From sequence record OM313460: a stretch of DNA of 52,782 bases, one strand, 5' to 3'. The notes under the pieces were generated by a model. It was not told the origin of the DNA. It saw nothing but the letters and a program-made list of their open reading frames with translations, and ran no database searches. The position numbers and the translations under genes are program-made. The stretch is from Escherichia phage vB_EcoM_IntR. Shown piece by piece: positions 9,123-49,661 of this stretch; position 1 is the stretch's first letter; each line of letters starts with the position of its first letter.

Positions 9123-9183
9123 ATGGTGTTGCGTGGCATCAACCGTTATACTACCAAGCTCAAAATAAATATGGGACGGTAAA

Positions 9184-33537: not shown

Positions 33538-33739
33538 TAAGCCTGAAGTTGTTTATGTTGACAGGGTAGTCAAGGTTTATCCGCCTGGTGCGTACCTGGT
33601 TAAATGCCATAAACCTGAATTAACAGGTAATACCTGGAAGGCAATAGGTCAGTTAGCTATTGAACGTGGAACAGCTCTTGATGATTGTGCAGACAAGATG
33701 GACAGCATAATTAACTGGAGTAACAAAGGGGCCGAGTGA
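33464..33739 (+). CDS. o-spanin (Rz1-like lipoprotein), overlapping the i-spanin gene
   Basis: ATG at 33464 with AAGAAGGG RBS; signal peptide LILLLLLPFMNSC; out of frame with the i-spanin 3' end. Confidence 0.5.
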   Translation: MTKRQNMIRALILLLLLPFMNSCADKPEVVYVDRVVKVYPPGAYLVKCHKPELTGNTWKAIGQLAIERGTALDDCADKMDSIINWSNKGAE

Positions 33740-33753
33740 TGGCCCCTTTATTT
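33728..33753. terminator. bidirectional rho-independent terminator between convergent blocks
   Basis: GGGGCC-GAGTGAT-GGCCCC hairpin flanked by A-run upstream and TTTATTT downstream. Confidence 0.65.
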
Positions 33754-36516: not shown

Positions 36517-37511
36517 CAGTCCCCTCTCACATACGCAATTACAACTGTACGAGTTGAGTTTTCCATTTTGAGCGCCTGACTACCCAGTCCTATTCTTTCC
36601 ATGCCTTTAGCCAGTTTACTCATCTGACTAATAACACAGTTGAACGGTTTACTAAACTTAGTCGACTGGAACTTAATGTCGACGGACATCTTTGGAATAA
36701 TCTTATCTGGTAAGTCTGCCTTTGCAGTTGACTCGCCTGTTATCTCCAGAATAGCCTGACCTTCGTCGTACCCAGTAAGCTGGTCCATGACTTCCAGGAA
36801 CTCAGGAGTGATGGCCTGCATATCCATTTCCATATTGAAGAACTTCGATACGTCTGGCCATTTGGCTGCGAGTACCGGAGCATCCATCTGTACGCCATCC
36901 GCAAAGCCGAAGAACATCTGGCCGCGGGCGTATCCTACACTTGTGGGTTCCATCTTCAGCTTAACCAGGGCCTCAAGCATTGGTTTGGCTATGGCACATT
37001 CAAATTCAAAATCCACGTTCAACTTCTCGCGTATCATATACTTACCGTTAGTGGCGTAAGCATAACCATCGCGCAGAAGTAAAGATGTTGCCCATACCTG
37101 CGGTGCTTCGTTAGGTACCCATTTGGCTAAGGCAGTTAATACCGGGAGTAATTCGCCATGTGCTGAATACCAGTTGTTAACTGTAGCAAGCGGCGGTATT
37201 GGTTCATTAAGCGCTTGCATTCTTGTTTTAAGTACACCTGCTGTGACTGTGAGGTTTCCAGCGGCTGTAATGTTAAAAGTAATCTGTTCAGTTCTTGCCG
37301 CATTAACGGCCTTACGAAATGATTCAGCATCCACTTGCAGGTCTGGAAATCCTTTACATGGCGCTCGTAGTAATACGTTCTTGTAGTATGAATGGATTGT
37401 TCCGTCTGCAATCCATATTTTGCCCATAAGACCACTATCAGTATACTTGATGGGACGAGCTTGTTGAACGGCAGTCTGTATTTGTTTGGTGTCATAGTTA
37501 AACTTGCTCAT
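36516..37511 (-). CDS. hypothetical protein adjacent to the DNA polymerase gene
   Basis: 331-aa ORF; start follows a stable hairpin; function not recognisable by eye. Confidence 0.5.
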   Translation of the reverse strand: MSKFNYDTKQIQTAVQQARPIKYTDSGLMGKIWIADGTIHSYYKNVLLRAPCKGFPDLQVDAESFRKAVNAARTEQITFNITAAGNLTVTAGVLKTRMQALNEPIPPLATVNNWYSAHGELLPVLTALAKWVPNEAPQVWATSLLLRDGYAYATNGKYMIREKLNVDFEFECAIAKPMLEALVKLKMEPTSVGYARGQMFFGFADGVQMDAPVLAAKWPDVSKFFNMEMDMQAITPEFLEVMDQLTGYDEGQAILEITGESTAKADLPDKIIPKMSVDIKFQSTKFSKPFNCVISQMSKLAKGMERIGLGSQALKMENSTRTVVIAYVRGD

Positions 37512-37518: not shown

Positions 37519-37534
37519 CGGGGCCGAAGCCCCG
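37519..37534 (-). promoter_or_regulatory. stable intergenic hairpin (UUCG tetraloop on transcript strand)
   Basis: CGGGGC-CGAA-GCCCCG on the + strand, so CGGGGC-UUCG-GCCCCG in the leftward transcript, between the ThyA-family and downstream genes. Confidence 0.5.
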
Positions 37535-37541
37535 CTCCATC

Positions 37542-38426
37542 TTATACGGCCATTTGGAGTTTGATGTTTGGCATTGGTTTGTACTTCTCAACCATTGGCG
37601 TAACATCGGCAGGAGTGAAGTCAAACACTGACACGTCACAAATTGCATTAATGTCAGGACGACCTTCAAAGTTAGTGTCCAGTGTAGTATCAGAATTGCT
37701 TACGATACGTTGCAGGAAAATCTTTGCCGCATCGATATGATTCTGATAGATGTGATAATCACCCAGCGTAACAGTCATATCCCCTACACCAACACCCAGC
37801 TCAGCAGCAATGGTAATCTGCAACATCTGATGCAGCAGAATGTCATGAGGCAGGCCCAGAATAACATCCGCGCTACGCATATGGAACATCAGCTCTAATT
37901 CATTACGGTTGTTAATGAACAGCTGAAAACCATGGTAACAAGGCGGAAGGGCCATGGCGTCCATCTCTTGTGGGTTCCATGCCGTAACGTAAGCCCGGCG
38001 GTCGGTAGGTTTAACCTTCAGCGTTTCAATAACATCTTTAAGCTGGTTAGTGAGAACACCATTCTTATAGAATGGCTTAATCCACTGCACGCCGTACACA
38101 GGACCTAAGTCACGGTTGTCTGGTGTACCCCAACGTTTGTTTGCATCCTGCAGATTACCTTCCCACCAGTTGCAGCCAAAACCTTTGAGCGTATCGACAT
38201 TTGAAATGCCGTTGATAAAGCAATAAAGCTCAGCAGCAACAGCCTTGATGTTAACTGGTTTAAATACCGGTACCATCAGTTTGTTGTCCTTGAAAGCCAG
38301 CTTAAACGCTGTACCAAAACAACGGCGTGTACCAACACCTGTACGGTCTTCGACATCTTCACCCTTACGCAGGATAAACGAAATGATGTCGCTGTAAAGA
38401 GAATCGACAGTGCTGTATGTTTTCAT
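37542..38426 (-). CDS. ThyA-family pyrimidine C5-modifying enzyme, predicted dCMP-specific (hydroxymethylase or methyltransferase)
   Basis: DRTGVGT, DLGPVYGVQW, MALPPCYHGFQ (catalytic Cys), RSADVILGLPHD; Asp replaces the Asn177-equivalent and Tyr replaces His147; AAGGAA RBS. Confidence 0.75.
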   Translation of the reverse strand: MKTYSTVDSLYSDIISFILRKGEDVEDRTGVGTRRCFGTAFKLAFKDNKLMVPVFKPVNIKAVAAELYCFINGISNVDTLKGFGCNWWEGNLQDANKRWGTPDNRDLGPVYGVQWIKPFYKNGVLTNQLKDVIETLKVKPTDRRAYVTAWNPQEMDAMALPPCYHGFQLFINNRNELELMFHMRSADVILGLPHDILLHQMLQITIAAELGVGVGDMTVTLGDYHIYQNHIDAAKIFLQRIVSNSDTTLDTNFEGRPDINAICDVSVFDFTPADVTPMVEKYKPMPNIKLQMAV

Positions 38427-39019
38427 TAAAACAGTTCCTTTTGGGCCGGGTTAACGTGTGCGTCGATGATTGCCTGAATGTCAGGTGCTTTCCATCCTTC
38501 AGGCTTAACAATATCCTGACCAGACTTATGCTTACTGTTGCTTGCATCAGGCTTAGCGCGTTCTTTCGCCATGTTAGCAGCCTGTACCGCATCCCATGCA
38601 TCATCAAGTGGCCAGTTGTTGTTTGCACACCAGGTAATCAGGTGGATAATTAACTGTGCCAGACGGTCGCAATGAGTGTCTTCAGTATCCTTAACGTATA
38701 CGATAAGACCTTCAGCATCAAAGCGGTCCATAAATCCGCATGGCGTAGTCAATAGAATCGGATACTCAAATTCGTTGGTGAACCATGCTGTCTGGTCATA
38801 CAGGTATAACGTACCTGCAGCAATATAGATTAAGTCTACAATACCGTCTAAGAATCCAGCTTTATCGCCTTCTTTCTTAGCTTGCTTAATTTCATCCATC
38901 TCCTCAATAAGACGGTCATAACGAAGTTTGAACTCTGGCTTGCCGCCTTGACTAATCGGCTTGAGGTCAAACTTCTCGTGGAAAGCTGTAACACCTGCAG
39001 CAATTTTACTGAATCGCAT
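38426..39019 (-). CDS. MazG-like NTP pyrophosphohydrolase (candidate dCTPase/dUTPase)
   Basis: LIEEMDEI (EExxE-like) and LDGIVDLIYIAAG blocks; AAGGAG RBS; stop overlaps the ThyA-family start. Confidence 0.5.
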   Translation of the reverse strand: MRFSKIAAGVTAFHEKFDLKPISQGGKPEFKLRYDRLIEEMDEIKQAKKEGDKAGFLDGIVDLIYIAAGTLYLYDQTAWFTNEFEYPILLTTPCGFMDRFDAEGLIVYVKDTEDTHCDRLAQLIIHLITWCANNNWPLDDAWDAVQAANMAKERAKPDASNSKHKSGQDIVKPEGWKAPDIQAIIDAHVNPAQKELF

Positions 39020-39404
39020 TTCTTAACTCCTTACAAACAGTTTCGATAAACTTACGTTTTGTTTCAGTAGACCAGATTATATGTCGGGCCTTCTCTAATA
39101 CGTCCCAGCGGTCTTTACCCACAGGAAAGGGAACAATGAAGAGGCCGGTGCGAGATATACGCTTGATAAACGGGAACTTGCAACGCATGGTTGTTTCAAA
39201 TTTGATAAAGTTATTTTGCGCTTCGCGTGTAAATTTAACCTTATCAAATTCATGCTCGAGTGTTTGAGCAAGGTTGCATACCTCATGGAAAGAGGATGCA
39301 GGCAGGTAGTCTTCACGACCGACAGTGTTTACGTAGTCGATTTGACCTTCAAGACGAAGTATCCAAATTCTATAATAAGCTTCAGCGACACGTTGTAGAT
39401 TCAT
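39006..39404 (-). CDS. hypothetical protein
   Basis: 132-aa ORF with GAGGAGAG RBS, first gene downstream of the 39431-39459 promoter. Confidence 0.5.
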   Translation of the reverse strand: MNLQRVAEAYYRIWILRLEGQIDYVNTVGREDYLPASSFHEVCNLAQTLEHEFDKVKFTREAQNNFIKFETTMRCKFPFIKRISRTGLFIVPFPVGKDRWDVLEKARHIIWSTETKRKFIETVCKELRNAIQ

Positions 39405-39430
39405 TGTATCTCTCCTCTAAAAGATAACTT

Positions 39431-39459
39431 ATTATACCACATCACTCTCTAGTGGTAAA
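39431..39459 (-). promoter_or_regulatory. sigma70-type promoter on the minus strand (TTTACC-N17-TATAAT)
   Basis: Reverse complement of 39431-39459 reads TTTACC-17 nt-TATAAT. Confidence 0.55.
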
Positions 39460-39474
39460 GCACTTTTTATGCTT

Positions 39475-39509
39475 CGGGTAAAATAAAAAGGACCAGCGTT
39501 AACTGGTCC
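39475..39509 (-). terminator. rho-independent terminator (minus strand)
   Basis: GGACCAG-CGTTAA-CTGGTCC hairpin followed on the minus strand by TTTTTATTTT. Confidence 0.7.
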
Positions 39510-39741
39510 TTATGGCAGGGTGGCGTAAGGAGATACAAGGAATCGCAGTTATGCAACCAGGCAGCGCATATGAGATTGGCTTAAGGACTGACCGACTTAA
39601 TCCCCGCGACGAGTCGAAAGGAGGTACCATCAAGTAGCCAATCACATATGCGTTACTTGCTGTGTGCTCTTACCACAGAAAGTATATAGCGTTACACTTA
39701 TCACACAGTTGTAGTGGCAAAAGCACACAGCAAGTACAACC

Positions 39742-39828
39742 TTAGTTGTGGTGTCTTAGCACCTGAGTTATTGTGGATAACCTGCACCCGACGGGTGTCA
39801 AAAAGATACGCCAAAACACCACAACTAA
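39742..39828. repeat. 13-bp perfect inverted repeat pair flanking a DnaA-box-like 9-mer
   Basis: TTAGTTGTGGTGT at 39742-39754 and ACACCACAACTAA at 39816-39828; TGTGGATAA (reverse complement TTATCCACA) at 39772-39780; palindrome CACCCGACGGGTG at 39785-39797. Confidence 0.5.
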
Positions 39829-40079
39829 AATTGTGACCGCCGTCTACACCAGGCGCCTGGGGTCAAGGTAGCGAGCCAATACCCTTTTCAGCGTCGGAGG
39901 AATCGAACCTCACACATCACGGCTTTTACCAAATCTCGGTCAGCGAGCAGAATTGAACTGCATTCACTGGACACCCTCACTGTTTCAACACACCAGGCTT
40001 AATTGATTGTTGATAAGAAGAGAGATGTAAGGATGTCCATTGAATGCACCTCCGTAGAGGTGCGTTCAGATCAGCGCTA

Positions 40080-40547
40080 TTATTCAGCAACTTCTTCGTT
40101 GTCGCCTTCGATCGCGCCAGCCAGTTTAGCAGCTTCAGCTTTAGCAGCTTCTGCTTTCTGGCGAGCTTTTTCAGCTTTCTCTTCAGCTTTGCGAATCTGC
40201 TCAGCAGCTTTCGCTTCGGCTTTTTCAGCTTTGATGCGAGCACGCTCTTCAGCTTTACGCTGTTTTTCAGCAGCTTTAGCAGCATCGCGTTCTGCTTTAG
40301 CGGTATCAACGCGCTTAGCCAGAACTTTACCAGTGGCTTTACGCCAGTAGGTCAGCTGGGAAGAAACAGTACCACGGGACATTTCGGTAGTGGCAACAAC
40401 TTCGTCCATAACATCGGAGCTGGACTTGCCTTCTTCATGGGCTTTATCAGCCAGGTCCCATACGTAACGTGCGCCAGTACCAGCTGCCGGATACAGTACG
40501 CCGTTAACTTCTTCTTTACCAGTTACAAAAGTCAGTTTCTCGCTCAT
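40080..40547 (-). CDS. hypothetical protein with C-terminal Lys/Ala/Glu-rich single-helix repeat
   Basis: ATG at 40545-40547 with GAGGAAAA RBS; C-terminus KAEKAEAKAAEQIRKAEEKAEKARQKAEAAKAEAAK; overlapping + strand ORFs are low-complexity mirror frames. Confidence 0.5.
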   Translation of the reverse strand: MSEKLTFVTGKEEVNGVLYPAAGTGARYVWDLADKAHEEGKSSSDVMDEVVATTEMSRGTVSSQLTYWRKATGKVLAKRVDTAKAERDAAKAAEKQRKAEERARIKAEKAEAKAAEQIRKAEEKAEKARQKAEAAKAEAAKLAGAIEGDNEEVAE

Positions 40548-40653
40548 AATTTTTTCCTCGTCTACAGGGCTTAATGTTTGTTCGTTACGTGAGTTAATAT
40601 ACGTCATTTAAAAGAGAGTGTAAACACCTTTTTTAAACTTTTTTCATTAGTGT

Positions 40654-40881
40654 TTAGAAAGGCACATCATAGTCAAAAAGTTTACATCCGGAAGACAGGA
40701 CTGCCGGCGGTGGTGTTTTGCCTCCGGATAATAGACAACCTCCTGCCTGAAAGCTACGGCAGTTCGCACAGCTCATATCCTGCAGGTATATAATAAGCTG
40801 CCGGCGAACGTGCCGAGGCAAAGCTTTAGCCTGGGTTGCTACCCGTTCAAATAGTTCTCTGTTATCGAGCGCCATAGCCAT
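40654..40881 (-). CDS. hypothetical Cys-containing small protein
   Basis: 75-aa ORF overlapping the helicase 3' end by 20 nt. Confidence 0.3.
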   Translation of the reverse strand: MAMALDNRELFERVATQAKALPRHVRRQLIIYLQDMSCANCRSFQAGGCLLSGGKTPPPAVLSSGCKLFDYDVPF

Positions 40882-42532
40882 TTCCCCAGTCGTAGTTCAT
40901 GATTTGTGGGTAGGGCCGTTTAATCCATACCTTAATACGCTTAGGAATGGCCAGCTCACCCTTACGGCGGATAAACTCGTCGCATGTTTCAGGCGGTTCG
41001 GTTCCTGCAGCATTACGCCACCAGGCATCTGCCATTTGTTTAGCATTACCATGGGCCTCAATATTTACCCAAGTTGTGTACACTTCCAGGTTTGAGTAGT
41101 ACACAACCTTTATACTGTCAGGTCGTCCTTGCTTCTGGAATAAAGAATAGTTTACCAGCGTAACATCTTTATCCACAACACGAAGCTGGCCATTAGTCAT
41201 TACTTCTTCTTCTGACGAAGTGAATGCAATAGCAGGTCCGTTAACTGTAAATTCAAATTCATGTCCGCACATCGGATATACACCATTCTCATCTGGCGTA
41301 CTTCCTTTAGCCGGATGCTTACACGTACGGGCGGCATAACCACTTACCTGGTGGCAGATAGGGCACTCTTTACCGCCAGGTGTTTTCTCTGACCGTTTCT
41401 TTTTCTTCTTACCAAGACGTGGCGGAACAGCCGGGTCATCAATAGGCCCAAGGTCAATGGTGTTAGATGTAAAGTCCATGACAAGACAGTCATGCTTACC
41501 AGGCGCTGTACGTAACCCTCGACCGAGTATCTGCACCCACAAAGCAACAGACGTGGACGGGCGCAAGATGCCGAGCATATCAATCTCAGGATAGTCAAAT
41601 CCTGTTGTCAATACGTTTACGTTTACACAGACCCGTGCTCGTCCGCTTGTAAACTCTTCCAGCGCCGTTTCACGTTCTTTCTTTGTAAGACCGCCATGCA
41701 CAACTACAGTCTGCCACCCTCGCAGATTAAATTCGTCTGCTATGTTGTGGGCGTGTTCAACACTTGTGGCGAATACAAGAACGTGGTTCCTGTCTTTACC
41801 GTAGTGCATCATCTCGCGGATGGCTGCAACTGTTATGCTGTGTTGGTTGGCTACCTTCTCAAGCTCTGACGGTATATAATCACCCATCCTTTCGCCAACA
41901 TTACTGGTGTCAATCTTGGTTAACACTTTCTTGTTGACCAGGCGTGACAGGAAGCCTTCATTTACCAGTCTGGTGAATGCGTCAGGTGTTGTAAGGTCAT
42001 AGCAGATGTCGGTAAATATACCGCAGTCAAGTAAGTGACCACCCGCCAGTCGATACGGAGTTGCTGTAAGGCCTGTTACCTTTACCTTAGGATTAAGCTC
42101 TTTGAAATGAGCAATAACCTTACGGTATGTTGTTTCAGACTTCTCAGGAACAAGATGGGCTTCGTCAATGAATATAAGATTGAACTTACCTGCTTCTTCC
42201 AGGTTCTTAATAATCGACTGTACTGACGCTACAACGATACGACCTGAAAAGTCTTTGTGTCCTGCGCCTGAAGAGTAGATTGATACTGGTGCTTGCGGCC
42301 AGTGGCGAACAATCGCTTTGGCGTCTTGTTCTACCAGCTCCTTGACGTGTGTCAATATAAGAATACGCTGACGTGGATAGCTGGTAAGAATATCCTTCAT
42401 CAACATACCAAGCACAGGTGATTTACCTGAACCTGTAGGCATGACAATAAGTGGATTACCACTATAAGAATTGAAGTACGACCACCAAGCTGTGACCGCT
42501 TCTTTTTGATACCAGCGAGCTTCAAAAGCCAT
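40862..42532 (-). CDS. SF2 DNA helicase (DEAH-type)
   Basis: Motif I MPTGSGKS, motif II FIDEAH, motif III TATP, motif VI QILGRGLR; C-terminal Cys cluster CPICH...C. Confidence 0.8.
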   Translation of the reverse strand: MAFEARWYQKEAVTAWWSYFNSYSGNPLIVMPTGSGKSPVLGMLMKDILTSYPRQRILILTHVKELVEQDAKAIVRHWPQAPVSIYSSGAGHKDFSGRIVVASVQSIIKNLEEAGKFNLIFIDEAHLVPEKSETTYRKVIAHFKELNPKVKVTGLTATPYRLAGGHLLDCGIFTDICYDLTTPDAFTRLVNEGFLSRLVNKKVLTKIDTSNVGERMGDYIPSELEKVANQHSITVAAIREMMHYGKDRNHVLVFATSVEHAHNIADEFNLRGWQTVVVHGGLTKKERETALEEFTSGRARVCVNVNVLTTGFDYPEIDMLGILRPSTSVALWVQILGRGLRTAPGKHDCLVMDFTSNTIDLGPIDDPAVPPRLGKKKKKRSEKTPGGKECPICHQVSGYAARTCKHPAKGSTPDENGVYPMCGHEFEFTVNGPAIAFTSSEEEVMTNGQLRVVDKDVTLVNYSLFQKQGRPDSIKVVYYSNLEVYTTWVNIEAHGNAKQMADAWWRNAAGTEPPETCDEFIRRKGELAIPKRIKVWIKRPYPQIMNYDWGNGYGAR

Positions 42533-42590
42533 TTAACGTCTCCTCATTAACTTCATATATTATACCACTTCCTTGTGGTGATGTATACTT

Positions 42591-43469
42591 TTATTTTAAG
42601 GAAAGTTTAACGGGCTTCTCATCCTGTGGGAAGACATCAGCAGGGCGATACTCATCGCAAGCCGCTAATTGCTCTTCGATTGTTTCGAGTTCTTTCTGGT
42701 GCTTGTTGCAGTACCACACTTTGCCCTGAAGCGGTTTACTGTAATGGCAGGTTCTGCAGTTCCTGTCTGGCATTGCTCCTTTGTGGCACAAGTGATGGTA
42801 TTCGCACATCCCTGGTTTGCACTCCCACCAAATAGGCGATTCAGAAATCTTCGGCATATCCAAACCAGATTCCGCATATACAACAGCCTCCGCTTTACTC
42901 AGTTGTATGTCGCTTTCCAGTAAGTCAATCTCGACCACTTCAAAATACATCTCGTCAGTGTTCTTGTTGATTGCAATATACACAGCTTGATTCAGCTTAA
43001 GCTTCCGCATGTACACCTGCATCTGGGCGTAGTGTACCGGCTTACTTGCTTTAACAGACTTGAGCTTGACTAACTCTTTAAACGACTTATCGCCATGCGT
43101 CTTGAATTCAGCAAGTGCCCATACGCCTTTGTATTTAATTACACAGTCACAAGACCCAGAGAAGATGTCATTGAAGTCGTGTATGCGCCATTGCTTACCA
43201 GTCTTGGGATTGACGTCCAGCACTTCGTCACATACGGAACGAAGCCACTTTACAATTCTGCTTTCTTCAAGGTTACCACGTTCAAACAGACGAAGTTGCT
43301 TAGCTGTAAACTTCTCCTTGAACGACCAGTGCAGAACGTGCCAAAGATAGCGATAGCAGTTGTGTCCTATCTGCGATGCTCCAAGATGCCCGCGTCGTTC
43401 TTCTCTTTCATGGGCTTCGACTATCTTGATGTCAATACGTTTCTGCAGGTCGTTAAACGGACTGGGCAT
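42591..43469 (-). CDS. RecB-family (Cas4-like) PD-(D/E)XK exonuclease with Cys cluster
   Basis: ATG at 43467-43469 with GAGGAG RBS; DCVIKYKGVWALAEFK (D...ExK), QMQVY (QhxxY), C-terminal CKPGMCEYHHLC...CRTC. Confidence 0.6.
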   Translation of the reverse strand: MPSPFNDLQKRIDIKIVEAHEREERRGHLGASQIGHNCYRYLWHVLHWSFKEKFTAKQLRLFERGNLEESRIVKWLRSVCDEVLDVNPKTGKQWRIHDFNDIFSGSCDCVIKYKGVWALAEFKTHGDKSFKELVKLKSVKASKPVHYAQMQVYMRKLKLNQAVYIAINKNTDEMYFEVVEIDLLESDIQLSKAEAVVYAESGLDMPKISESPIWWECKPGMCEYHHLCHKGAMPDRNCRTCHYSKPLQGKVWYCNKHQKELETIEEQLAACDEYRPADVFPQDEKPVKLSLK

Positions 43470-43938
43470 TGTTAAACTCCTCAACGCTGAATTCATCATA
43501 CACAATATTATGTGCCCACAAATGGGCGACGGCATTTGCCATGCTGTCCTTCCATTTGGATTGAGAAGCTGTGTGTGCCAATGCAACTACCCGAACCAGG
43601 TTAAGGTTGGCTATCAGCATATCTGCACAATGTTCGCACGGCGGGTAGGTTATGTAGATGGTAACCGGGCCTAATGAAGGAGTGTCTAACTCACTCCTTA
43701 TATTAGCTAAGGTATTTATCTCGCTATGAATAGTGAGAGCGTTCTTGAGGCTATTAGGCACTATTCTTATAGAGTCTAGCTGCGTAGGCAGACCGTTATA
43801 TCCAGTGGAAATAATACGCTTGTTCTGGTCCACAAGAACGCTACCGACTTGACGTTTCGGGTCCTTCGACCAGCTTGCAACTTCACAAGCTATGCGCATA
43901 AACCGCTTATCCCACTTGTCCATCTTCTTCTTTTGCAT
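43453..43938 (-). CDS. dCMP deaminase (cytidine/deoxycytidylate deaminase family)
   Basis: Zinc-binding HSE (HSEINTL) and PCEHC motifs; GGAGA RBS. Confidence 0.8.
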   Translation of the reverse strand: MQKKKMDKWDKRFMRIACEVASWSKDPKRQVGSVLVDQNKRIISTGYNGLPTQLDSIRIVPNSLKNALTIHSEINTLANIRSELDTPSLGPVTIYITYPPCEHCADMLIANLNLVRVVALAHTASQSKWKDSMANAVAHLWAHNIVYDEFSVEEFNNAQSV

Positions 43939-43955
43939 GGTAGTCTCCGTATATG

Positions 43956-43976
43956 AAAATAGGGGCCGAAGCCCCT
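43956..43976 (-). terminator. terminator-like hairpin (UUCG tetraloop) on the minus strand
   Basis: AGGGGC-CGAA-GCCCCT on the + strand; on the transcript a hairpin followed by AUUUUC. Confidence 0.45.
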
Positions 43977-43999
43977 ATTGAATATCTACTCGGCAGGGA

Positions 44000-44527
44000 T
44001 TATTCTTCCCAAGGAGCTGCTTCACCACCATCAGTACCAGGTGCCGTTGCAGTAGCACTCGCACCTGCACCTACTTTCTTCGTCGTCGATGCAGTTGCTT
44101 GAGACTGACCGCCTACTGCAGTAGTTGCTTCAGTTGACGCTTTGTATTCGCGAATATCGTTTTGTGGGTCGTACTCACCGGTCTTGTCGATACGAACACC
44201 AACTTTACCGGCTACAATACGGTTTTCCAGTAAGTCGGTAGAAGTCAGTTCAACAATACCCAGCGCACGACACAACGCAGACAGTTTGCGATGACCGATT
44301 TCAACAGCTTGCGCATTAGGGTTGGAGTAGGTAATCATGTCAAATACAACACGGTTAGCGAACTCACCTTCCTGCACTTTCAGACGCAGGGACAGATAAG
44401 AACCAGTGCCTGCTTTAGTCGGCTTCAGCTCAACCTCTTCAATCATGAAGTTGTACCAGCCTTTCGGGATCGGGTCAAAAGACTGTTGCGGTTCGACGGT
44501 AGAGCTGTTGAAGTTTAATTCAGCCAT
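44000..44527 (-). CDS. hypothetical protein (DUF669-like position next to the ATPase; possible ssDNA-binding role)
   Basis: 175-aa ORF with Ala/Thr/Gly-rich acidic C-terminus, directly downstream of the AAA ATPase. Confidence 0.45.
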   Translation of the reverse strand: MAELNFNSSTVEPQQSFDPIPKGWYNFMIEEVELKPTKAGTGSYLSLRLKVQEGEFANRVVFDMITYSNPNAQAVEIGHRKLSALCRALGIVELTSTDLLENRIVAGKVGVRIDKTGEYDPQNDIREYKASTEATTAVGGQSQATASTTKKVGAGASATATAPGTDGGEAAPWEE

Positions 44528-44634
44528 TGTTTGGTATCCTGTTTAAGTTTAATTTAATTTCGTTTAACGCTTTACCGGCAGCGTTCGGCCGTGATGCTTA
44601 TTATACGCCACTTTTTATCATGGCGTAAACACTT

Positions 44635-45519
44635 TTATTCGCCGGATTCTTTTTCAGCTTGAGCAGCTTTCTTCGCCATCCAGGCTAGGTGCTTCTCTTT
44701 CGATTCGTCTGAACCGATTTTAGTGAGTTGCACATTCGGGTCGTCGTTCTGCATTTGTTCTGCAGCTCGACCAGTCAGAAGCAGGTAGCTGTCTGACTCC
44801 GGGTGGTAATACCACAGCTGGTAAGGATGATAGCCTTGTAGCTTATCATAAATCCAACCCAGATCTGCAGGTTCACGTGCATCCAGTTCACGCCCTGGTG
44901 CGTTACGGCACTTAGCTTCCCATTGATAGTCAGGTTGTGTCTGAATATAACGTTCGCTGTTACCGTTGGCATCTGGTGCAGTCATACGCAAAGCAAGTAC
45001 CGCATCCATAAGATACGGCAACTGTTTAGGTAACTGCTGTCCTGGCATAAGAGGTGAGTACAGCATTGCACCAGTAACCTCGTCCTTGTTCTTCTCAAGC
45101 TTGCACAGGTATGCAACGCTGAAAGGCAAGTCACGGAACTGACGCATGATATACATCATCTTGTCGTTGGTATTACCATAAGCCTGTCGTTTGTCGTTGA
45201 CCTGCGACTTCTCATAGTCCAGACAAACTTCAGCAACATCCGATAGTGAGTCGAAAATCAGATGCTCGTACTTCTGCGCATCCTTACTTTCGGTAAGCCA
45301 TTTGTACAGCGCCAGAATGTCATTGAACGTATTGATTGGCGTAGAGTCGATGTCAGCATCTGCAATCGACATCAATCCACCTTCAGCGTTAATGACCAGA
45401 ACCTTGTCATGAGGCAAGGTCTTAGCCAGGCTGGTTTTACCAACACCTGATGCGCCGTAAATAGCGACCTTAGGTCGCTTATTTTCTACGGCTTGTTTAG
45501 TAGATACAATCTGAACCAT
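44635..45519 (-). CDS. AAA/RecA-like ATPase (Sak4-like recombination ATPase)
   Basis: Walker A GASGVGKTSLA, Walker B HLIFDSL; GAGGA RBS. Confidence 0.7.
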   Translation of the reverse strand: MVQIVSTKQAVENKRPKVAIYGASGVGKTSLAKTLPHDKVLVINAEGGLMSIADADIDSTPINTFNDILALYKWLTESKDAQKYEHLIFDSLSDVAEVCLDYEKSQVNDKRQAYGNTNDKMMYIMRQFRDLPFSVAYLCKLEKNKDEVTGAMLYSPLMPGQQLPKQLPYLMDAVLALRMTAPDANGNSERYIQTQPDYQWEAKCRNAPGRELDAREPADLGWIYDKLQGYHPYQLWYYHPESDSYLLLTGRAAEQMQNDDPNVQLTKIGSDESKEKHLAWMAKKAAQAEKESGE

Positions 45520-45749
45520 TAGTGATAGTCCTCGTAAAGTGATTCTTCATCGCAGTACATACGATAAAGAGCTTCTTCGGCTTCTTCCAGGGTGTCAAAC
45601 TCCTCGCCACAGACGGAGTATTTTGTGGGTTCATCGAATGACTCGACGATGTGCCAGTCATGATGAATACCGTACGTCCACAAGTCGCAGTCATCTTTTG
45701 CAACAAGCTTACGTGTGGAACGAAATTGTGCTAGAGTATTGATGCTCAT
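45519..45749 (-). CDS. hypothetical acidic protein
   Basis: ATG at 45747-45749 with GAGGAGAGAG RBS (ORF-track start 45788 is upstream). Confidence 0.4.
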   Translation of the reverse strand: MSINTLAQFRSTRKLVAKDDCDLWTYGIHHDWHIVESFDEPTKYSVCGEEFDTLEEAEEALYRMYCDEESLYEDYH

Positions 45750-45809
45750 ATTCTCTCTCCTCATGTGTATAGAGGTATTATACACCACTTACATGGGGTA
45801 AGTACACTA

Positions 45810-46256
45810 TTATTTTACACTAACAGCTTGACACGATAGCCGCGACAAACCGAGGTTGGCTATAACGCCATCGAGCAATACTCCTGCATGTTCTTCATTG
45901 TATGCTTCTACCCACAAAGGGATGGTGACGCCCTTCAGATGGTCGCTATACACGTTAAACCTATATACCTGTTTGTGTGCTTTGTCAACACGCACAACAG
46001 TAAGGTTACCATCCTCGTAAGGAGGAAGCTCAACGCCTTTCTTACTCCAGAAGTTACGGAACTCAGCACTATTAACAATGCCGTGTACAACACGTTCTGT
46101 AAGCTCTGTTTTGAGGTCAGCACGTGCCTTTGTACTGATAAAGAAACGACAAGAGAAGAAAGCATTGACGTTTAACACATCAACCGCGTACACAACGTTA
46201 TGCTCTTCAGCAGTTGGTGCTTTATAAACAATATATTTAGTTTTGAACAGGTCCAT
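45810..46256 (-). CDS. hypothetical protein
   Basis: 148-aa ORF, GGAGAG RBS. Confidence 0.5.
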   Translation of the reverse strand: MDLFKTKYIVYKAPTAEEHNVVYAVDVLNVNAFFSCRFFISTKARADLKTELTERVVHGIVNSAEFRNFWSKKGVELPPYEDGNLTVVRVDKAHKQVYRFNVYSDHLKGVTIPLWVEAYNEEHAGVLLDGVIANLGLSRLSCQAVSVK

Positions 46257-46279
46257 AGTACTCTCCAGGGAGGAAGATA

Positions 46280-46297
46280 GGCGGGCTTGTACCCGCC
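46280..46297 (-). promoter_or_regulatory. intergenic hairpin
   Basis: GGCGGG-CTTGTA-CCCGCC between the 46305..47210 and 45810..46256 genes. Confidence 0.4.
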
Positions 46298-46304
46298 GAA
46301 GTTA

Positions 46305-47210
46305 TTACAGCAGTTCTGCTTTCATGGCAGCGATACCATCAAGCAATGCTTTGATGTCCGGATTAGATGCTGCCAGGTCTGCAACAACTGACTGACGACG
46401 ACGTTCCAGCTCTTTCTCAACTTCCAGGTCGAGGCGTGCTGATGCTTCACGCAATAAGGTTTCAACCTGCTGACGACGCTGGTACTTGTTAAAGTCAGGT
46501 ACATCAACCAGCCATTTGAGAGTTGCAGTATTATAGCCAGAAGTATTGGCTGCACTTACAGACACAACGTCAACCAGCTTAGTACCGTTTAAGTCCGGAT
46601 AGTTAACATTGCGAACGTCAACAACTGCTTTGTCGCCTACACTTACTTTGCCGATGTACTTGTATGTGTACACACGACCATTCGGTTCAAATTTAACACC
46701 GACGAACTTCAGTTTGTCGTCGGCAATAACTTCTTCCTCAACTTTGAAGTTGATTGCTGTGTTCTTGACAGGTGCAGCCGCTTTGAGCTTAGCAACCATG
46801 TACTGTTCGGAATGAGCAGGACGGCACAGACGGAATACGTCTTCATTGTACGTCAGCCAGTTACCAGTCTCATCCATGCATGCAATCTGATTAGTGCCAT
46901 CCAGCGAACGAACACCCGGACGATTCTTCTCAACACGATACAGCTTACCTTCTTTCAGGTTAGCATAAGAACGGCGGGCGATACCCCAGTTGTGTTTTTC
47001 AGATTCATACTTAGCGAAACGGTCAACACTGAAGTTCTGCTTCAGACCACGGTCGTCAATTACCCATAAGTTATCGTAAGCACCGCCGAAAGAACCCAGG
47101 TTGGCATACACTTTGCCCTGCGTCAACAGGGAAGTGTTTCCCTCGTCAACACAGATAACAAAACCCAGAGCTTCGTGTGCTTTACCGCTGCGGTCAAATA
47201 CTGTAGTCAT
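46305..47210 (-). CDS. hypothetical protein
   Basis: 301-aa ORF, AAGGAAA RBS. Confidence 0.55.
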   Translation of the reverse strand: MTTVFDRSGKAHEALGFVICVDEGNTSLLTQGKVYANLGSFGGAYDNLWVIDDRGLKQNFSVDRFAKYESEKHNWGIARRSYANLKEGKLYRVEKNRPGVRSLDGTNQIACMDETGNWLTYNEDVFRLCRPAHSEQYMVAKLKAAAPVKNTAINFKVEEEVIADDKLKFVGVKFEPNGRVYTYKYIGKVSVGDKAVVDVRNVNYPDLNGTKLVDVVSVSAANTSGYNTATLKWLVDVPDFNKYQRRQQVETLLREASARLDLEVEKELERRRQSVVADLAASNPDIKALLDGIAAMKAELL

Positions 47211-47324
47211 TTCTTGTTTCCTTGTATACCAGTTTGATTGTATGCCAGAGACATTCCCTGCGCATGTGCTTTATTGCTTAACCGTTAAAGACATTATATC
47301 ATTAGTGAGTGGTGACGTACACAT

Positions 47325-47615
47325 TTATTTTAAGGCAGAAGTGCAAATAGCATCACACAAACAATAATGAGCACGGTCGTAGTCTTCAAACAAGAACACT
47401 TCGCCGTTGGCGACTACTTCAATATCGTTAACTTGCATGCTGATACCAGAATGCAGGAGCACATCCATAGCCTGGTCCTTGTTCTTGTACGGGTCCCAAA
47501 TAAGCTGGAAGCCTGACCCGCAAAGGAGACATCCCTTGAGCTCCGGAAGAGTTGACTCCTTCACAGTCACATTACAAATCTTAGCCAGTTTAGCACGAGA
47601 ATCGAGAGTACTCAT
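47325..47615 (-). CDS. hypothetical protein
   Basis: 96-aa ORF, ATGA-coupled to the upstream gene. Confidence 0.45.
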   Translation of the reverse strand: MSTLDSRAKLAKICNVTVKESTLPELKGCLLCGSGFQLIWDPYKNKDQAMDVLLHSGISMQVNDIEVVANGEVFLFEDYDRAHYCLCDAICTSALK

Positions 47616-47902
47616 TTACGTTTACCTTTACGTTTGTGTAGCGGAGTATATGTTTTCTTTGGTACGCCAAACATGGCCGCATATGTACCGACTTCTTTCT
47701 TTGTTGGCTTATCCACAATTTCGTCAATCACGATTAAGTCATGGTCGATATTGCGAAAGACTTCAGCCGCTCTTTTCTCAACAGGAGTAAAGTCAATAAC
47801 CAGCTCTTTGCCTATCAGGCTTTCTTTGAGCTTGTCAAATAGCCATTTGTCACGCGGACCAGGATTGCCCATAAACATAACACGCATCTGCTTATTGTCC
47901 AT
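47612..47902 (-). CDS. hypothetical basic protein
   Basis: 96-aa ORF with Lys/Arg-rich C-terminus. Confidence 0.45.
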   Translation of the reverse strand: MDNKQMRVMFMGNPGPRDKWLFDKLKESLIGKELVIDFTPVEKRAAEVFRNIDHDLIVIDEIVDKPTKKEVGTYAAMFGVPKKTYTPLHKRKGKRK

Positions 47903-47992
47903 GGATGATATACCCCGTTATTTGTGTTGCCAGGTACAAACCGTATACCACACACCCAACTAGTATGGCATCAAGAATCAGATGAGCTATCT

Positions 47993-48295
47993 TTACGTTT
48001 GATCACCGGCCTTGACTGTAACGTTACGGCTGTTAACCACTTCCAGGCTGGTGCCATCATTTTTGTGGGTTACACGAATAAACGCAACACCCTCAGCCTG
48101 TGCCTGCTCAATAGCTTTATTCAGCACAACATTATCCTGTACCATATGACGTACGCGAGGAAGGATATTACAAAGAGGTTCCATCTCATCCATTCCTGCA
48201 GTACGCATGACTGACTTGAGAATGCCAAGATGATGCTTATAACGGTCTTCAAGATTATACTTCTTGCTGTTATGACTTTTACGTTCTGCTGCCAT
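47993..48295 (-). CDS. hypothetical protein
   Basis: ATG at 48293-48295 with GGAGA RBS (ORF-track start 48307 is TTG). Confidence 0.45.
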   Translation of the reverse strand: MAAERKSHNSKKYNLEDRYKHHLGILKSVMRTAGMDEMEPLCNILPRVRHMVQDNVVLNKAIEQAQAEGVAFIRVTHKNDGTSLEVVNSRNVTVKAGDQT

Positions 48296-48314
48296 GTAAG
48301 TCTCCAAAAGTCAA

Positions 48315-48333
48315 GGGGCTTGTGCTAAGCCCC
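48315..48333 (-). promoter_or_regulatory. intergenic hairpin
   Basis: GGGGCT-TGTGCTA-AGCCCC between the 48340..48789 and 47993..48295 genes. Confidence 0.4.
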
Positions 48334-48789: not shown

Positions 48790-49060
48790 CAGTTGTTTCC
48801 TCAGGTTGCATGTGCATAGTTGCACCAATTAGTAGACAATAGTTATTGAACATTGTACGTAGTGCCTGGCCCGCAACAATATCCGTTATGTCTATTATAC
48901 CACTTTTAGTGGTGACGCGTAAAGCTTTTTCTTTCTTTGTTTTTTCCACGAATGCAATGCTGATGATTTCTTCCGCATGTATTACGTGGATAGTACCTGC
49001 AAACTCACCAGTCTTAGCTGGTGCCTGGTACACTAACGACATAGACGGTTGGTTACTCAT
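48692..49060 (-). CDS. hypothetical protein (3' end overlaps the next gene by ~98 nt)
   Basis: 122-aa ORF, weak RBS; the long overlap makes the true stop uncertain. Confidence 0.3.
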   Translation of the reverse strand: MSNQPSMSLVYQAPAKTGEFAGTIHVIHAEEIISIAFVEKTKKEKALRVTTKSGIIDITDIVAGQALRTMFNNYCLLIGATMHMQPEETTDGTEPTRTGIDGHGTAVRQAGESEPLDGTGES

Positions 49061-49508: not shown

Positions 49509-49539
49509 TGGTTGTATCTCCTTAACAGAATGTAAGTCT

Positions 49540-49568
49540 ATTATGTATATAAAGGAGGGGAAAGTAAA
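49540..49568 (-). promoter_or_regulatory. sigma70-type promoter on the minus strand (TTTACT-N17-CATAAT)
   Basis: Reverse complement of 49540-49568 reads TTTACT-17 nt-CATAAT; divergent from the + promoter at 49602-49631. Confidence 0.5.
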
Positions 49569-49601
49569 TAGATATAAATGTATAAAATACATAAAAGTCT
49601 A

Positions 49602-49631
49602 TTTACTCTGGTTTAATAACGTGTATATAAT
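49602..49631 (+). promoter_or_regulatory. sigma70-type promoter (TTTACT-N18-TATAAT)
   Basis: TTTACT 49602-49607, TATAAT 49626-49631. Confidence 0.5.
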
Positions 49632-49661
49632 GAGAGCCTCACAAACAAGAGGAGAGACTCA

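What the first reader, a model, noticed from the sequence alone, without database searches (positions are those of the whole stretch)
37519..48333. Recurring GC-rich tetraloop hairpins between genes of the leftward replication block
Near-identical hairpins sit in intergenic gaps: CGGGGC-UUCG-GCCCCG (37519-37534), AGGGGC-UUCG-GCCCCU followed by AUUUUC (43961-43976), GGCGGG-6 nt-CCCGCC (46280-46297) and GGGGCU-7 nt-AGCCCC (48315-48333). UUCG tetraloops on short GC stems are very stable. The pattern suggests partial terminators or attenuators, or RNase processing and stability elements that set differential expression within a long operon.
Basis: seen in the sequence. Interest (0 to 1): 0.4.

Follow-up and report, generated by a model that had tools for sequence, protein, structure and literature searches.

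The report
Leaky terminator hairpins between phage genes
The four GC-rich hairpins are real, conserved RNA stem-loops at the ends of early genes of a Rosemountvirus phage. They are most likely weak transcription terminators or mRNA-end protectors, which is an ordinary feature. One of them also sits, unusually, between a gene's ribosome-binding site and its start codon.

Summary
The window is a BP63-like Rosemountvirus, colinear with Escherichia phage swi3. All four hairpins exist exactly as described, on the minus (sense) strand. Each starts 6-20 nt after a stop codon: thyA, SSB, gp68 and gp72.

They are not chance. Ten of the 12 strong GC hairpins in the genome lie in the 8% that is non-coding. 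The same four gaps in diverged relatives carry hairpins with different stem sequences: 100% of cells paired, 4 of 7 and 6 of 9 pairs compensatory. G·U pairs and UUCG loops occur only in the sense orientation.

Relatives have canonical U-tracts. In the window the U-tracts are weakened, at the 95th-97.5th percentile. The authors of phage S144 already annotated the orthologous hairpins as terminators.

The block is not one operon. At least seven sigma-70-type promoters divide it, and three hairpins follow the first gene after a promoter.

Best reading: leaky intrinsic terminators and 3'-end stabilisers that step expression down. RNase III processing is unlikely because the stems are only 6-9 bp.

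H1 lies between an invariant GGAG and the start codon of the polymerase processivity-factor gene. This resembles the split ribosome-binding sites of T4 genes 25 and 38.

Ordinary overall: a new member of a known kind.

The parts
37519..37534 (-). H1: CGGGGC-UUCG-GCCCCG hairpin. It starts 7 nt after the thyA stop (37542-37544) and ends 7 nt before the AUG of the pol-beta/processivity-factor gene (37509-37511).
   Evidence: -15.7 kcal/mol, z = -3.2. Orthologous gaps in 5 stem variants are 100% paired, with 4 of 7 pairs compensatory. Tail score 3.47, 97.5th percentile.
37535..37538 (-). GGAG Shine-Dalgarno sequence lying directly 5' of H1. It is 23 nt from the AUG unfolded and 7 nt with the hairpin folded.
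   Evidence: GGAG is invariant in all lineages while the neighbouring spacer varies. There is no SD between the hairpin and the AUG. The gene is one of 11 of 72 with no SD 3-12 nt upstream.
43958..43979 (-). H2: AAUAGGGGC-UUCG-GCCCCUAUU followed by UUCAU. It starts 20 nt after the SSB stop. The SD and AUG of dCMP deaminase follow.
   Evidence: Six variants are 100% paired, with 6 of 9 pairs compensatory. Relatives have an A-tract, stem and UUUUU tail, with tail scores 4.8-5.1. Annotated as a terminator in S144.
46280..46297 (-). H3: GGCGGG-UACAAG-CCCGCC followed by UAUCUUCCUCCC. It starts 7 nt after the gp68 stop.
   Evidence: The stem is invariant while the loop and flanks vary among close relatives. 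KM, fHy-Eco03, SOI901 and L014 have different stems, some with UUCG or UUAG loops.
48315..48333 (-). H4: GGGGCUU-AGCAC-AAGCCCC followed by UUGACUUUUGGAG. It starts 6 nt after the gp72 stop.
   Evidence: (the only one of the four flagged by the terminator scan). Conserved in Rosemountvirus and Loughboroughvirus; SE4 has a different loop and stem. Absent in the KM, fHy-Eco03 and SOI901 lineages.
40046..40063 (-). It starts 16 nt after the gp59 stop and has no U tract.
   Evidence: conserved in all lineages, UUCG loop in most, compensatory change in SOI901. Tail score 2.44, which is background.
39488..39511 (-). Canonical intrinsic terminator (AAGGACCAG-UUAACG-CUGGUCCUU followed by UUUAUUUU) that ends the gp59 unit, just upstream of promoter 39459-39431.
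   Evidence: z = -5.1; tail score 5.46. The S144 orthologue is annotated as a terminator.
33725..33749 (.). Bidirectional terminator between the convergent late (+) and early (-) blocks. It is the end point of the H1-containing transcription unit.
   Evidence: (annotated in BP63).
44600..44629 (-). Sigma-70-type promoter TTTACG-N18-TATAAT upstream of SSB. The unit reads promoter, SSB, H2.
   Evidence: (annotated in BP63).
47293..47321 (-). Promoter TGTAC-N-GATATAAT upstream of gp68. The unit reads promoter, gp68, H3.
   Evidence: gap sequence.
48894..48923 (-). Promoter TTTACG-N18-(TG)TATAAT inside gp73, upstream of gp72. The unit reads promoter, gp72, H4.
   Evidence: PHROG coverage supports the long gp72 start.
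39431..39459 (-). Promoter TTTACC-N17-(TG)TATAAT that drives gp57, the pyrophosphohydrolase, thyA, H1, pol-beta and pol.

Best explanation
H1-H4 are sense-strand RNA stem-loops of the intrinsic (Rho-independent) terminator type. They sit just after the stop codons of thyA, SSB, gp68 and gp72 in the host-RNAP-transcribed early and replication block of a Rosemountvirus.

Proposed mechanism (inferred):
- As RNA polymerase transcribes the GC stem and the U-rich tail, a fraction of complexes release the transcript. The rest read through into the downstream genes, which have no promoter of their own.
- Terminated or 3'-trimmed transcripts end in a very stable hairpin that resists 3' exonucleases.
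- Together with at least seven internal sigma-70-type promoters, this gives a stepped expression profile. The promoter-proximal genes (SSB, gp68, gp72) are expressed more than the distal enzymes.
- In the window's lineage the U tracts are degraded, and three hairpins start only 6-7 nt after the stop codon. A terminating ribosome would cover the 5' arm there. Termination is therefore expected to be weak and sensitive to translation.

H1 has a second probable role. It lies exactly between an invariant GGAG and the AUG of the polymerase processivity-factor gene. Folding shortens the SD-AUG spacing from 23 nt to 7 nt, the spacing this phage normally uses.

Shown here: existence, position, strand, conservation, covariation, tail statistics and promoter layout.
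Inferred: termination, stabilisation and SD bridging.
For: 1. Position. All hairpins lie 4-20 nt downstream of a stop codon on the coding strand.
2. Enrichment. There are 12 strong GC hairpins against 4.5 +/- 2.3 expected, and 10 of the 12 lie in the 8.4% of the genome that is non-coding.
3. Conservation with covariation across Rosemountvirus, Loughboroughvirus, KM/KE26, fHy-Eco03, Erwinia SOI901, RF1 and two metagenomic contigs. For H1, 35 of 35 cells are paired and 4 of 7 pairs are compensatory. For H2, 54 of 54 cells are paired and 6 of 9 pairs are compensatory. Slid controls give 28-74% paired.
4. Strand specificity. G·U pairs occur in several lineages and would be A·C in the antisense strand. 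Tetraloops read UUCG, UUAG or UACG only in the sense orientation. U-rich tails are on the sense side only, with antisense tail scores of 1.8-2.5, which is background.
5. Terminator anatomy. Stem energies of -11 to -13 kcal/mol equal those of the genome's canonical terminators. Tail scores of 3.1-3.5 (95th-97.5th percentile) compare with 4.3-5.6 for the canonical terminators. Orthologues of H1 and H2 in relatives score 4.2-5.1 and have A-tracts.
6. Independent annotation. The S144 authors' own table lists the orthologues of H1, H2 and H4 as 'terminator' and that of H3 as 'regulatory'.
7. Architecture. Three units read promoter, first gene, hairpin (P44629-SSB-H2, P47321-gp68-H3, P48923-gp72-H4). 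No promoter motif lies between H1 and the pol genes.
8. Stop-codon proximity represses terminators in E. coli (PMC4824070).
9. Split RBS at H1. GGAG is invariant 0-2 nt 5' of the hairpin in five stem variants, followed by 7-8 AU-rich nt to the AUG with no other SD. Other genes use GGAG-N6/7-AUG. The precedent is T4 genes 38 and 25 (PMC3014915).
Against: - No transcript 3'-end data exist for this genus.
- In the window the U tracts are interrupted, with 4-5 U in the first 8 nt. Only H4 passes the simple terminator scan.
- In some close relatives the tail falls to background while the stem is kept (BP63 H3 at 2.09, yarpen H4 at 2.25). The stem is therefore selected for something beyond termination.
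- H5 has the same stem and loop type with no U tract.
- Hairpins 6-7 nt from a stop codon may hardly terminate when translation is coupled.
- RNAfold pairs the last two SD bases of H1 weakly with the tail. That could mask the SD rather than present it.
Confidence: 0.62

Rival explanations
1. The hairpins do not terminate transcription to any useful extent. They are purely post-transcriptional elements. They would block 3'-to-5' exonucleases after endonucleolytic cleavage, or protect 5' ends. This would give the upstream cistron's mRNA segment a longer life, and for H1 would shape the ribosome-binding site.
For: - Stems are conserved while U tails decay within Rosemountvirus.
- H5 has the same cUNCGg hairpin with no U tract and is conserved in all lineages.
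- H1, H3 and H4 start 6-7 nt after the stop codon, where ribosomes repress terminators.
- T4 CUUCGG hairpins are associated with mRNA stability (PMC8948821, citing Tuerk 1988).
Against: - Tails are still U-enriched on the sense side only, at the 95th-97.5th percentile. In most other lineages they are canonical UUUUU tracts with matching A-tracts. That is not needed for a mere exonuclease barrier.
- S144's terminator predictions hit the same sites.
Confidence: 0.27
2. They are RNase III (or other double-strand-specific nuclease) processing sites that cut the polycistronic RNA into separately stable messages, as in the T7 early region.
For: The position between cistrons is like that of the T7 R sites. 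Long stems suited to RNase III do exist nearby, but in a different element (39558-40048, arms of 22-25 nt).
Against: H1-H4 have only 6-9 bp of helix with 4-6 nt loops. This is well below the roughly two helical turns that RNase III substrates need (established knowledge). No Rfam family matched.
Confidence: 0.04
3. They are DNA-level palindromes: protein-binding operators, cruciforms, recombination or insertion hot spots, or hairpin promoters of the N4 type.
For: - They are perfect palindromes in DNA.
- In AV127 a tandem duplication junction lies inside the H2 hairpin.
- The database copy of the S144 record labels them 'promoter'.
Against: - Stem sequences differ between lineages while pairing is kept. 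This argues against a sequence-specific binding site.
- The G·U pairs would be mismatches in DNA and in the other strand.
- Loop and tail asymmetry follows the direction of transcription.
- The 'promoter' label is a slip, because the authors' own table says terminator.
- No phage RNA polymerase was found in S144 (PMC7432712).
Confidence: 0.04
4. Chance palindromes in GC-rich spacers with no function.
For: Each element is short. A repeated 14-mer alone is not significant in 52 kb (own estimate: about 5 repeated 14-mer pairs are expected).
Against: Enrichment over shuffles, concentration in non-coding DNA, and conservation at orthologous positions with compensatory changes.
Confidence: 0.01

Closest known systems
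Intrinsic (Rho-independent) terminators inside phage and bacterial operons. The orthologous sites are annotated as terminators in Salmonella phage S144 (Loughboroughvirus).
   Same: - A GC-rich stem of 6-9 bp with a 4-7 nt loop, followed by a U-rich tail on the sense strand just after a stop codon.
- The same four gene junctions as in S144.
- Stem energies equal to those of the genome's clear terminators.
   Different: - In the window the U tracts are interrupted, with 4-5 U in 8 nt.
- Three hairpins start only 6-7 nt after the stop codon.
- Downstream genes depend on read-through, so the hairpins can be only weak terminators.
- Termination itself is untested.
cUUCGg (UNCG) tetraloop hairpins of phage T4 intercistronic regions (Tuerk et al. 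1988, PNAS 85:1364, as cited in PMC8948821)
   Same: - H1 and H2 are C(UUCG)G loops on GC stems in intergenic regions of a lytic coliphage.
- H5 is C(UACG)G.
- UUCG recurs in the relatives at three of the four junctions and at H5.
   Different: H3 and H4 have 5-6 nt loops that are not UNCG. The phage is unrelated to T4. The function of the T4 hairpins is itself varied.
Split ribosome-binding sites of T4 genes 38 and 25 (Nivinskas et al. 1999; Malys and Nivinskas 2009; reviewed in PMC3014915)
   Same: The SD and AUG are too far apart: 23 nt here, against 22 and 27 nt in T4. A stable hairpin between them brings the spacing to a functional value: 7 nt here, against 5 and 11 nt in T4. The arrangement is kept across related phages.
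   Different: - Here the intervening hairpin is also a terminator-type element at the end of the upstream gene.
- There is no mutational or probing evidence.
- The Erwinia phage RF1 lineage lacks it, with a 2-nt gap.
RNase III processing sites of the T7 early region
   Same: Stem-loops between cistrons of an early phage transcript.
   Different: The stems are far too short (6-9 bp). Tested here and not met.

Membership tests
Intrinsic (Rho-independent) terminator | GC-rich stem of about 5-14 bp with a short loop and a stable fold | tested here: met
   6-9 bp stems with 5-6 GC pairs. Core energy -10.9 to -13.1 kcal/mol, the same as the canonical terminators at 39488, 33725 and 12637.
Intrinsic (Rho-independent) terminator | Run of U immediately 3' of the stem on the transcribed strand | tested here: inconclusive
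   In the window there are 4-5 U in the first 8 nt, with tail scores of 3.1-3.5 (95th-97.5th percentile) against 4.3-5.6 for clear terminators. Orthologues of H1 and H2 in other lineages have UUUU(U) and score 4.2-5.1.
Intrinsic (Rho-independent) terminator | Located downstream of a coding region, in the sense orientation | tested here: met
   The hairpins lie 6-20 nt after the stop codons of thyA, SSB, gp68 and gp72. Antisense tails are at background.
Intrinsic (Rho-independent) terminator | Transcript release or 3' ends at the site | not testable with these tools
   No transcriptome or 3'-end data for Rosemountvirus or Loughboroughvirus were found in the searched literature.
cUNCGg tetraloop hairpins (T4-type CUUCGG hairpins) | UNCG tetraloop closed by a C-G pair on a Watson-Crick stem | tested here: met
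   Met for H1, H2 (UUCG) and H5 (UACG). H3 and H4 do not meet it, having loops of 6 and 5 nt.
Split (hairpin-bridged) ribosome-binding site, T4 gene 25/38 type | SD more than 15 nt from the start codon, and no SD at normal spacing | tested here: met
   The arrangement is GGAG, then the 16-nt hairpin, then UUAUACU, then AUG, giving 23 nt. There is no SD-like core 3-12 nt upstream.
Split (hairpin-bridged) ribosome-binding site, T4 gene 25/38 type | A stable hairpin wholly between the SD and AUG that restores a spacing of 5-11 nt | tested here: met
   The folded spacing is 7 nt in the window and 8-10 nt in relatives. The phage's usual spacing is GGAG-N6/7-AUG. Caveat: RNAfold adds two weak pairs involving the last two SD bases.
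Split (hairpin-bridged) ribosome-binding site, T4 gene 25/38 type | Arrangement conserved with covariation among relatives | tested here: met
   Five stem variants have an invariant GGAG and 4 of 7 pairs compensatory. Absent in Erwinia phage RF1.
Split (hairpin-bridged) ribosome-binding site, T4 gene 25/38 type | Translation drops when the stem is disrupted and recovers with compensatory mutations | not testable with these tools
   Needs reporter fusions or toeprinting.
RNase III processing site | About 20 bp or more of (near-)continuous double-stranded RNA | tested here: not met
   The stems are 6-9 bp.
Dispersed repeat (REP/MITE-like) element | Many copies sharing sequence beyond the stem, at non-orthologous sites | tested here: not met
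   Only H1 and H2 share a 14-mer. The elements sit at orthologous junctions in all lineages, and their sequences diverge independently.

The most novel reading that the evidence does not exclude
H1 is a dual-purpose element. The same cUUCGg hairpin acts as a weak, ribosome-sensitive terminator at the end of thyA. In read-through transcripts it acts as the bridge of a split ribosome-binding site for the DNA-polymerase processivity-factor gene. Polymerase-module expression would then be set jointly by termination, by translation of thyA and by refolding of the hairpin. More broadly, the stems are kept while U tracts decay, and H5 has no U tract at all. This hints that in the Rosemountvirus lineage the hairpins are shifting from terminators to post-transcriptional elements.
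Probability: 0.35. Interest if true: 0.4.

Novelty: new member of a known kind. Interest (0 to 1): 0.22.

Why it matters
It gives a first transcription-unit map for the replication block of Rosemountvirus phages, which are being developed for Salmonella and E. coli biocontrol. None of the BP63 or swi3 records examined annotates these elements.

It corrects a mislabel: the S144 database copy calls the orthologous terminators 'promoter'.

It offers a compact natural set of graded terminator variants. The stem type is the same but the U tracts and stop-codon distances differ across lineages. These could be used to test rules of terminator strength and ribosome interference.

The H1 arrangement would extend the hairpin-bridged ribosome-binding site beyond the T-even phages.

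None of this changes current understanding of phage gene regulation.

Tried and rejected
- Rfam at gathering thresholds over the whole window gave no family. An E-value scan of 39400-40100 gave only weak miRNA-precursor-like hits, which are generic long hairpins.
- ARAGORN found no tRNA or tmRNA.
- IMG/VR scans with the SSB and pol-beta proteins returned almost only the same isolates, plus one new contig (L014) and one distant contig (L015).
- tblastn of pol-beta against phage records reached only relatives at 20-26% identity beyond the clade. These are too far for junction comparison.
- Literature searches found no transcriptome or 3'-end mapping for Rosemountvirus or Loughboroughvirus. One search was badly framed and useless.
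- DnaA boxes: 19 matches with up to 1 mismatch against 14.4 expected, so no enrichment and no support for an origin.
- RNase III sites, DNA palindromes or operators, N4-type hairpin promoters, REP-like repeats and chance were considered for H1-H4 and rejected. The reasons are in the rival explanations and the membership tests.
- The 'promoter' label on the S144 orthologues was checked against the authors' supplementary table and found to be a labelling slip.


Full report
**Identity of the window**

Megablast places the region in the genus Rosemountvirus (Salmonella phage BP63 type). Forty-four phage records cover at least 80% of the query, nearly all of them at 90-97% identity.

The window is colinear, without indels, with Escherichia phage vB_EcoM_swi3 (MT768059, 52782 bp). 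It differs by 2051 substitutions in 50 kb. These fall overwhelmingly on third codon positions, so it is a natural close relative and the swi3 and BP63 gene tables can be transferred.

Genes between about 33.7 and 49.5 kb are on the minus strand. In sense order they are:
- gp74, gp73 and gp72
- gp71, gp70 and gp69
- gp68 and gp67
- gp66 and the Sak4-like annealing protein
- SSB, dCMP deaminase and the Cas4-like exonuclease
- helicase and gp60
- gp59
- gp57, a pyrophosphohydrolase and thymidylate synthase (thyA)
- the DNA polymerase 'beta subunit'/processivity factor (called pol-beta here), then DNA polymerase

On the minus strand the four elements read as follows:
- H1, 37519-37534: CGGGGC-UUCG-GCCCCG.
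- H2, 43958-43979: AAUAGGGGC-UUCG-GCCCCUAUU.
- H3, 46280-46297: GGCGGG-UACAAG-CCCGCC.
- H4, 48315-48333: GGGGCUU-AGCAC-AAGCCCC.

Each sits in a short gap of 30, 61, 48 and 44 nt. Each starts 7, 20, 7 and 6 nt after the stop codon of thyA, SSB, gp68 and gp72 respectively.

Genome-wide there are 12 perfect hairpins with a stem of at least 6 bp and at least 5 GC pairs. Dinucleotide shuffles give 4.5 +/- 2.3. Ten of the 12 lie in the 8.4% of the genome that is non-coding.

- A fifth hairpin of the same kind, H5 (40046-40063, GCACCUC-UACG-GAGGUGC), 16 nt after the gp59 stop.
- A canonical terminator at 39488-39511.
- A bidirectional terminator at 33725-33749.

'Near-identical' applies only to H1 and H2.

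**Comparative evidence**

I extracted the four gene junctions from these relatives:
- BP63, yarpen, SE13 and AV127 (Rosemountvirus)
- S144, ZCSE2, S1, AEV23 and SE4 (Loughboroughvirus, about 72% nucleotide identity)
- KM and KE26
- fHy-Eco03
- Erwinia phages SOI901 and RF1
- two metagenomic contigs (L014 and L015)

Every lineage that has the junction has a hairpin there, but with a different stem.

thyA-to-pol-beta junction (H1):
- CGGGGC/GCCCCG
- GGGCGGC/GUCGCCC
- AGGCGGC/GCCGCCU
- AGGGGCC/GGUCCCU

SSB junction (H2):
- AAUAGGGGC
- AAACAGGAGC
- AAAGGGUAGGC
- AAAAGGGUAGC
- AAAGGGCUGGCC
- AAAGGCUCC
- GGGGCGGUC in L015, whose SSB is only 34% identical

Counting pairs on the alignments gives:
- H1: 35 of 35 cells paired, 4 of 7 pairs with changes on both sides.
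- H2: 54 of 54 cells paired, 6 of 9 pairs with changes on both sides.
- Slid controls: 28-74% paired and almost no double changes.

Several pairs are G·U in some lineages. These would be A·C in the antisense RNA and mismatches in a DNA cruciform, so the structure is selected in the sense transcript.

Tetraloops read UUCG (or UUAG, UACG) only in the sense orientation.

For H3 and H4 the stems are invariant among close relatives while the loops and flanks change. More distant lineages carry other stems. The KM, fHy-Eco03 and SOI901 lineages have no gap at the H4 junction.

**Terminator anatomy**

Core stem energies of -10.9 to -13.1 kcal/mol equal those of the clear terminators of this genome.

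I used a TransTermHP-style tail score. The formula is recalled from Kingsford et al. 2007, and scores are calibrated against all 15-mers of the block:

| Element | Tail score | Percentile |
|---|---|---|
| Clear terminators | 4.3-5.6 | 99.8 or higher |
| H1 | 3.47 | 97.5 |
| H2 | 3.2 (3.8 from the GC core) | 95.5 |
| H3 | 3.14 | 94.7 |
| H4 | 3.37 | 97.0 |
| H5 | 2.44 | 77.7 (background) |

The antisense sides score 1.8-2.5, which is background.

In the other lineages the H1 and H2 orthologues have UUUU(U) tails scoring 4.2-5.1, with matching A-tracts. That is textbook terminator anatomy.

Within Rosemountvirus the tails have weakened, and in some isolates they fall to background (BP63 H3 at 2.09, yarpen H4 at 2.25). 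The stems stay intact.

The S144 authors' supplementary annotation lists the orthologues of H1, H2 and H4, and of the 39488 terminator, as 'terminator'. It lists the H3 orthologue as 'regulatory'. The 'promoter' label on these features in the database copy of the record is therefore a slip.

**Transcription-unit layout**

The block is not one operon. A promoter family T[GTA]TAC-N17/18-TATAAT, often with an extended TG, occurs on the minus strand at these positions:
- 48923
- 47321
- 45806
- 44629
- 42587
- 40624
- 39459

Four of these are annotated in BP63.

Three hairpins follow the first gene after a promoter:
- P48923, gp72, H4
- P47321, gp68, H3
- P44629, SSB, H2

H5 follows the same pattern: P40624, gp59, H5.

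H1 lies inside the unit P39459, gp57, pyrophosphohydrolase, thyA, H1, pol-beta, pol, then the terminator at 33725. No promoter motif lies after H1, so the polymerase genes depend on read-through. The same holds for dCMP deaminase and Cas4 after H2.

This fits leaky terminators that step expression down from promoter-proximal genes, such as the stoichiometrically needed SSB, to distal enzymes.

Three hairpins begin 6-7 nt after the stop codon. Li et al. showed that a terminator a few bp after a gene is almost completely repressed by the terminating ribosome, and that efficiency rises with distance (PMC4824070). I therefore infer that termination at H1, H3 and H4 is weak and depends on translation. 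H2 lies 14-20 nt from the stop in all lineages and is the most terminator-like.

**H1 and the ribosome-binding site**

The junction reads UAA-GAU-GGAG-[CGGGGCUUCGGCCCCG]-UUAUACU-AUG.

- GGAG is invariant and lies 0-2 nt 5' of the hairpin in all five stem variants. The rest of the spacer varies (GAUGGAG, GGAGAC, AAGGAG, CUUUUGGAG, CUUCAGGAG).
- Only 7-8 AU-rich nucleotides, with no SD-like core, separate the hairpin from the AUG.
- Of 72 annotated genes, 61 have an SD-like core 3-12 nt upstream, and GGAG-N6/7-AUG is typical. Pol-beta is one of the 11 without one.
- Folding the hairpin reduces the GGAG-AUG distance from 23 nt to 7 nt.

This is the arrangement shown experimentally for T4 genes 38 (22 to 5 nt) and 25 (27 to 11 nt) (PMC3014915).

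A caveat: RNAfold adds two weak pairs (A-U and G·U) involving the last two SD bases. Termination-reinitiation from thyA is an untested alternative.

**Alternatives**

- A purely post-transcriptional role, as an exonuclease barrier or stability element, is the main rival. The evidence for it is that stems are conserved while tails decay, that H5 has no U tract, and that the hairpins lie close to stop codons. The two roles are not exclusive.
- RNase III processing is unlikely for stems of 6-9 bp.
- DNA-level palindromes are disfavoured by the G·U pairs, the strand asymmetry and the divergence of stem sequence.
- No Rfam family matches.

**Comparison with what is known, and verdict**

The elements belong to well-known kinds:
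- intrinsic terminators inside phage gene blocks
- cUUCGg hairpins, first noted in T4 intercistronic regions (Tuerk 1988, as cited in PMC8948821)
- for H1, the hairpin-bridged split ribosome-binding site

The orthologues in a sister genus were already predicted as terminators. The finding is real but ordinary. The H1 arrangement is the only mildly unusual point.

**Seen in passing**

The 560-nt CDS-free stretch between H5 and the 39488 terminator is the more striking feature in this interval. It holds four tandem long stem-loops, with a z-score of -9.5, and is conserved with G·U pairs in the sense strand. It has not been explained here.

Noticed in passing
window 39512-40045 (minus strand is sense): A roughly 560-nt stretch without an annotated CDS lies between H5 and the strong terminator at 39488-39511. 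It contains four tandem long stem-loops at 39959-40048, 39736-39834, 39654-39736 and 39558-39659. The arms are 22-25 nt and 83-91% complementary. The MFE of the 581-nt stretch 39486-40066, which also includes H5 and the 39488 terminator, is -233 kcal/mol against -171 +/- 6.6 in shuffles (z = -9.5). There is no tRNA and no Rfam family. Relatives have long inverted repeats at the same place; in Erwinia phage SOI901 they flank two tRNA genes. An alignment of six relatives keeps stems of about 23 bp with several G·U pairs in the sense orientation. Possible readings are RNase III substrates, a structured non-coding RNA or a degenerate tRNA cassette.
   Followed up: partly
window 40046-40063: A fifth GC hairpin with a UNCG loop (GCACCUC-UACG-GAGGUGC) lies 16 nt after the gp59 stop and has no U tract. 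It is conserved in all lineages, has a UUCG loop in most, and shows a compensatory change in SOI901.
   Followed up: yes
window minus strand 48923, 47321, 45806, 44629, 42587, 40624, 39459, 1520; plus strand 122, 7379, 10752, 12668, 18126, 20992, 49602, 52565 (first base of each): A family of sigma-70-type promoters, T[GTA]TAC-N17/18-TATAAT, often with an extended TG. They divide both the early and the late regions into short units. Divergent promoters lie at 49509-49661.
   Followed up: partly
L017 (Escherichia phage AV127, OR352957) 9540-9943: A partial tandem duplication of the 3' half of the SSB gene. Its junction lies inside the H2 hairpin (GGGGCUUCGGC|GCAAACUG...), and the second copy ends with an intact hairpin. 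It could be real illegitimate recombination at the hairpin or an assembly artefact.
   Followed up: partly
L008 (Erwinia phage RF1) 9390-9813; L007 (fHy-Eco03) 8855-9403: In RF1, an unannotated HNH-endonuclease-like ORF on the gene strand, recognised by eye (motif ...DHVNGNH...CANCH), sits directly after the SSB terminator hairpin. The record annotates only an opposite-strand hypothetical CDS there. In fHy-Eco03 an HNH homing endonuclease gene lies between dCMP deaminase and the exonuclease gene. Insertions therefore cluster around this junction.
   Followed up: no
window 1355-1466, 2057-2129, 2722-2785, 3356-3450 (minus-strand small-gene block): Long AT-rich inverted repeats (TTTCAAnnATGA...TCATGnTTGAAA, and 14-20 bp stems at 1355-1466). 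A repeated motif, TTATTCACAATCAAyAGGAGAGA, lies just before two starts. This is a different class from the GC hairpins.
   Followed up: no
window 1-50000; N at 540, 556, 696, 699, 701, 717, 850-851: The window has exactly the length and coordinates of swi3 (MT768059). It differs by 2051 substitutions and no indels, and has eight N. Most substitutions are at third codon positions. This suggests a reference-guided assembly of a close relative.
   Followed up: partly
L003 (S144, MT663719) 3049-3070, 5017-5046, 9411-9435, 11724-11745, 13850-13874: The database copy labels these hairpin-plus-T-tract features 'promoter'. The authors' supplementary table calls them 'terminator', with one 'regulatory'. 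Their RBS for the pol-beta gene is placed inside the hairpin (AGGU in the loop and 3' arm), which is implausible.
   Followed up: yes
window 39772-39780 (minus): An exact DnaA-box 9-mer, TTATCCACA, lies in the loop of one long stem-loop and is conserved in six relatives. DnaA-like boxes are not enriched in the window: 19 against 14.4 expected.
   Followed up: partly
window 45463-45479 and 18888-18908: These are the only two strong GC hairpins inside coding sequence, near the 5' ends of the Sak4-like gene and of the 18837-20966 gene. The first has a T-rich tail on the plus (antisense) strand.
   Followed up: no
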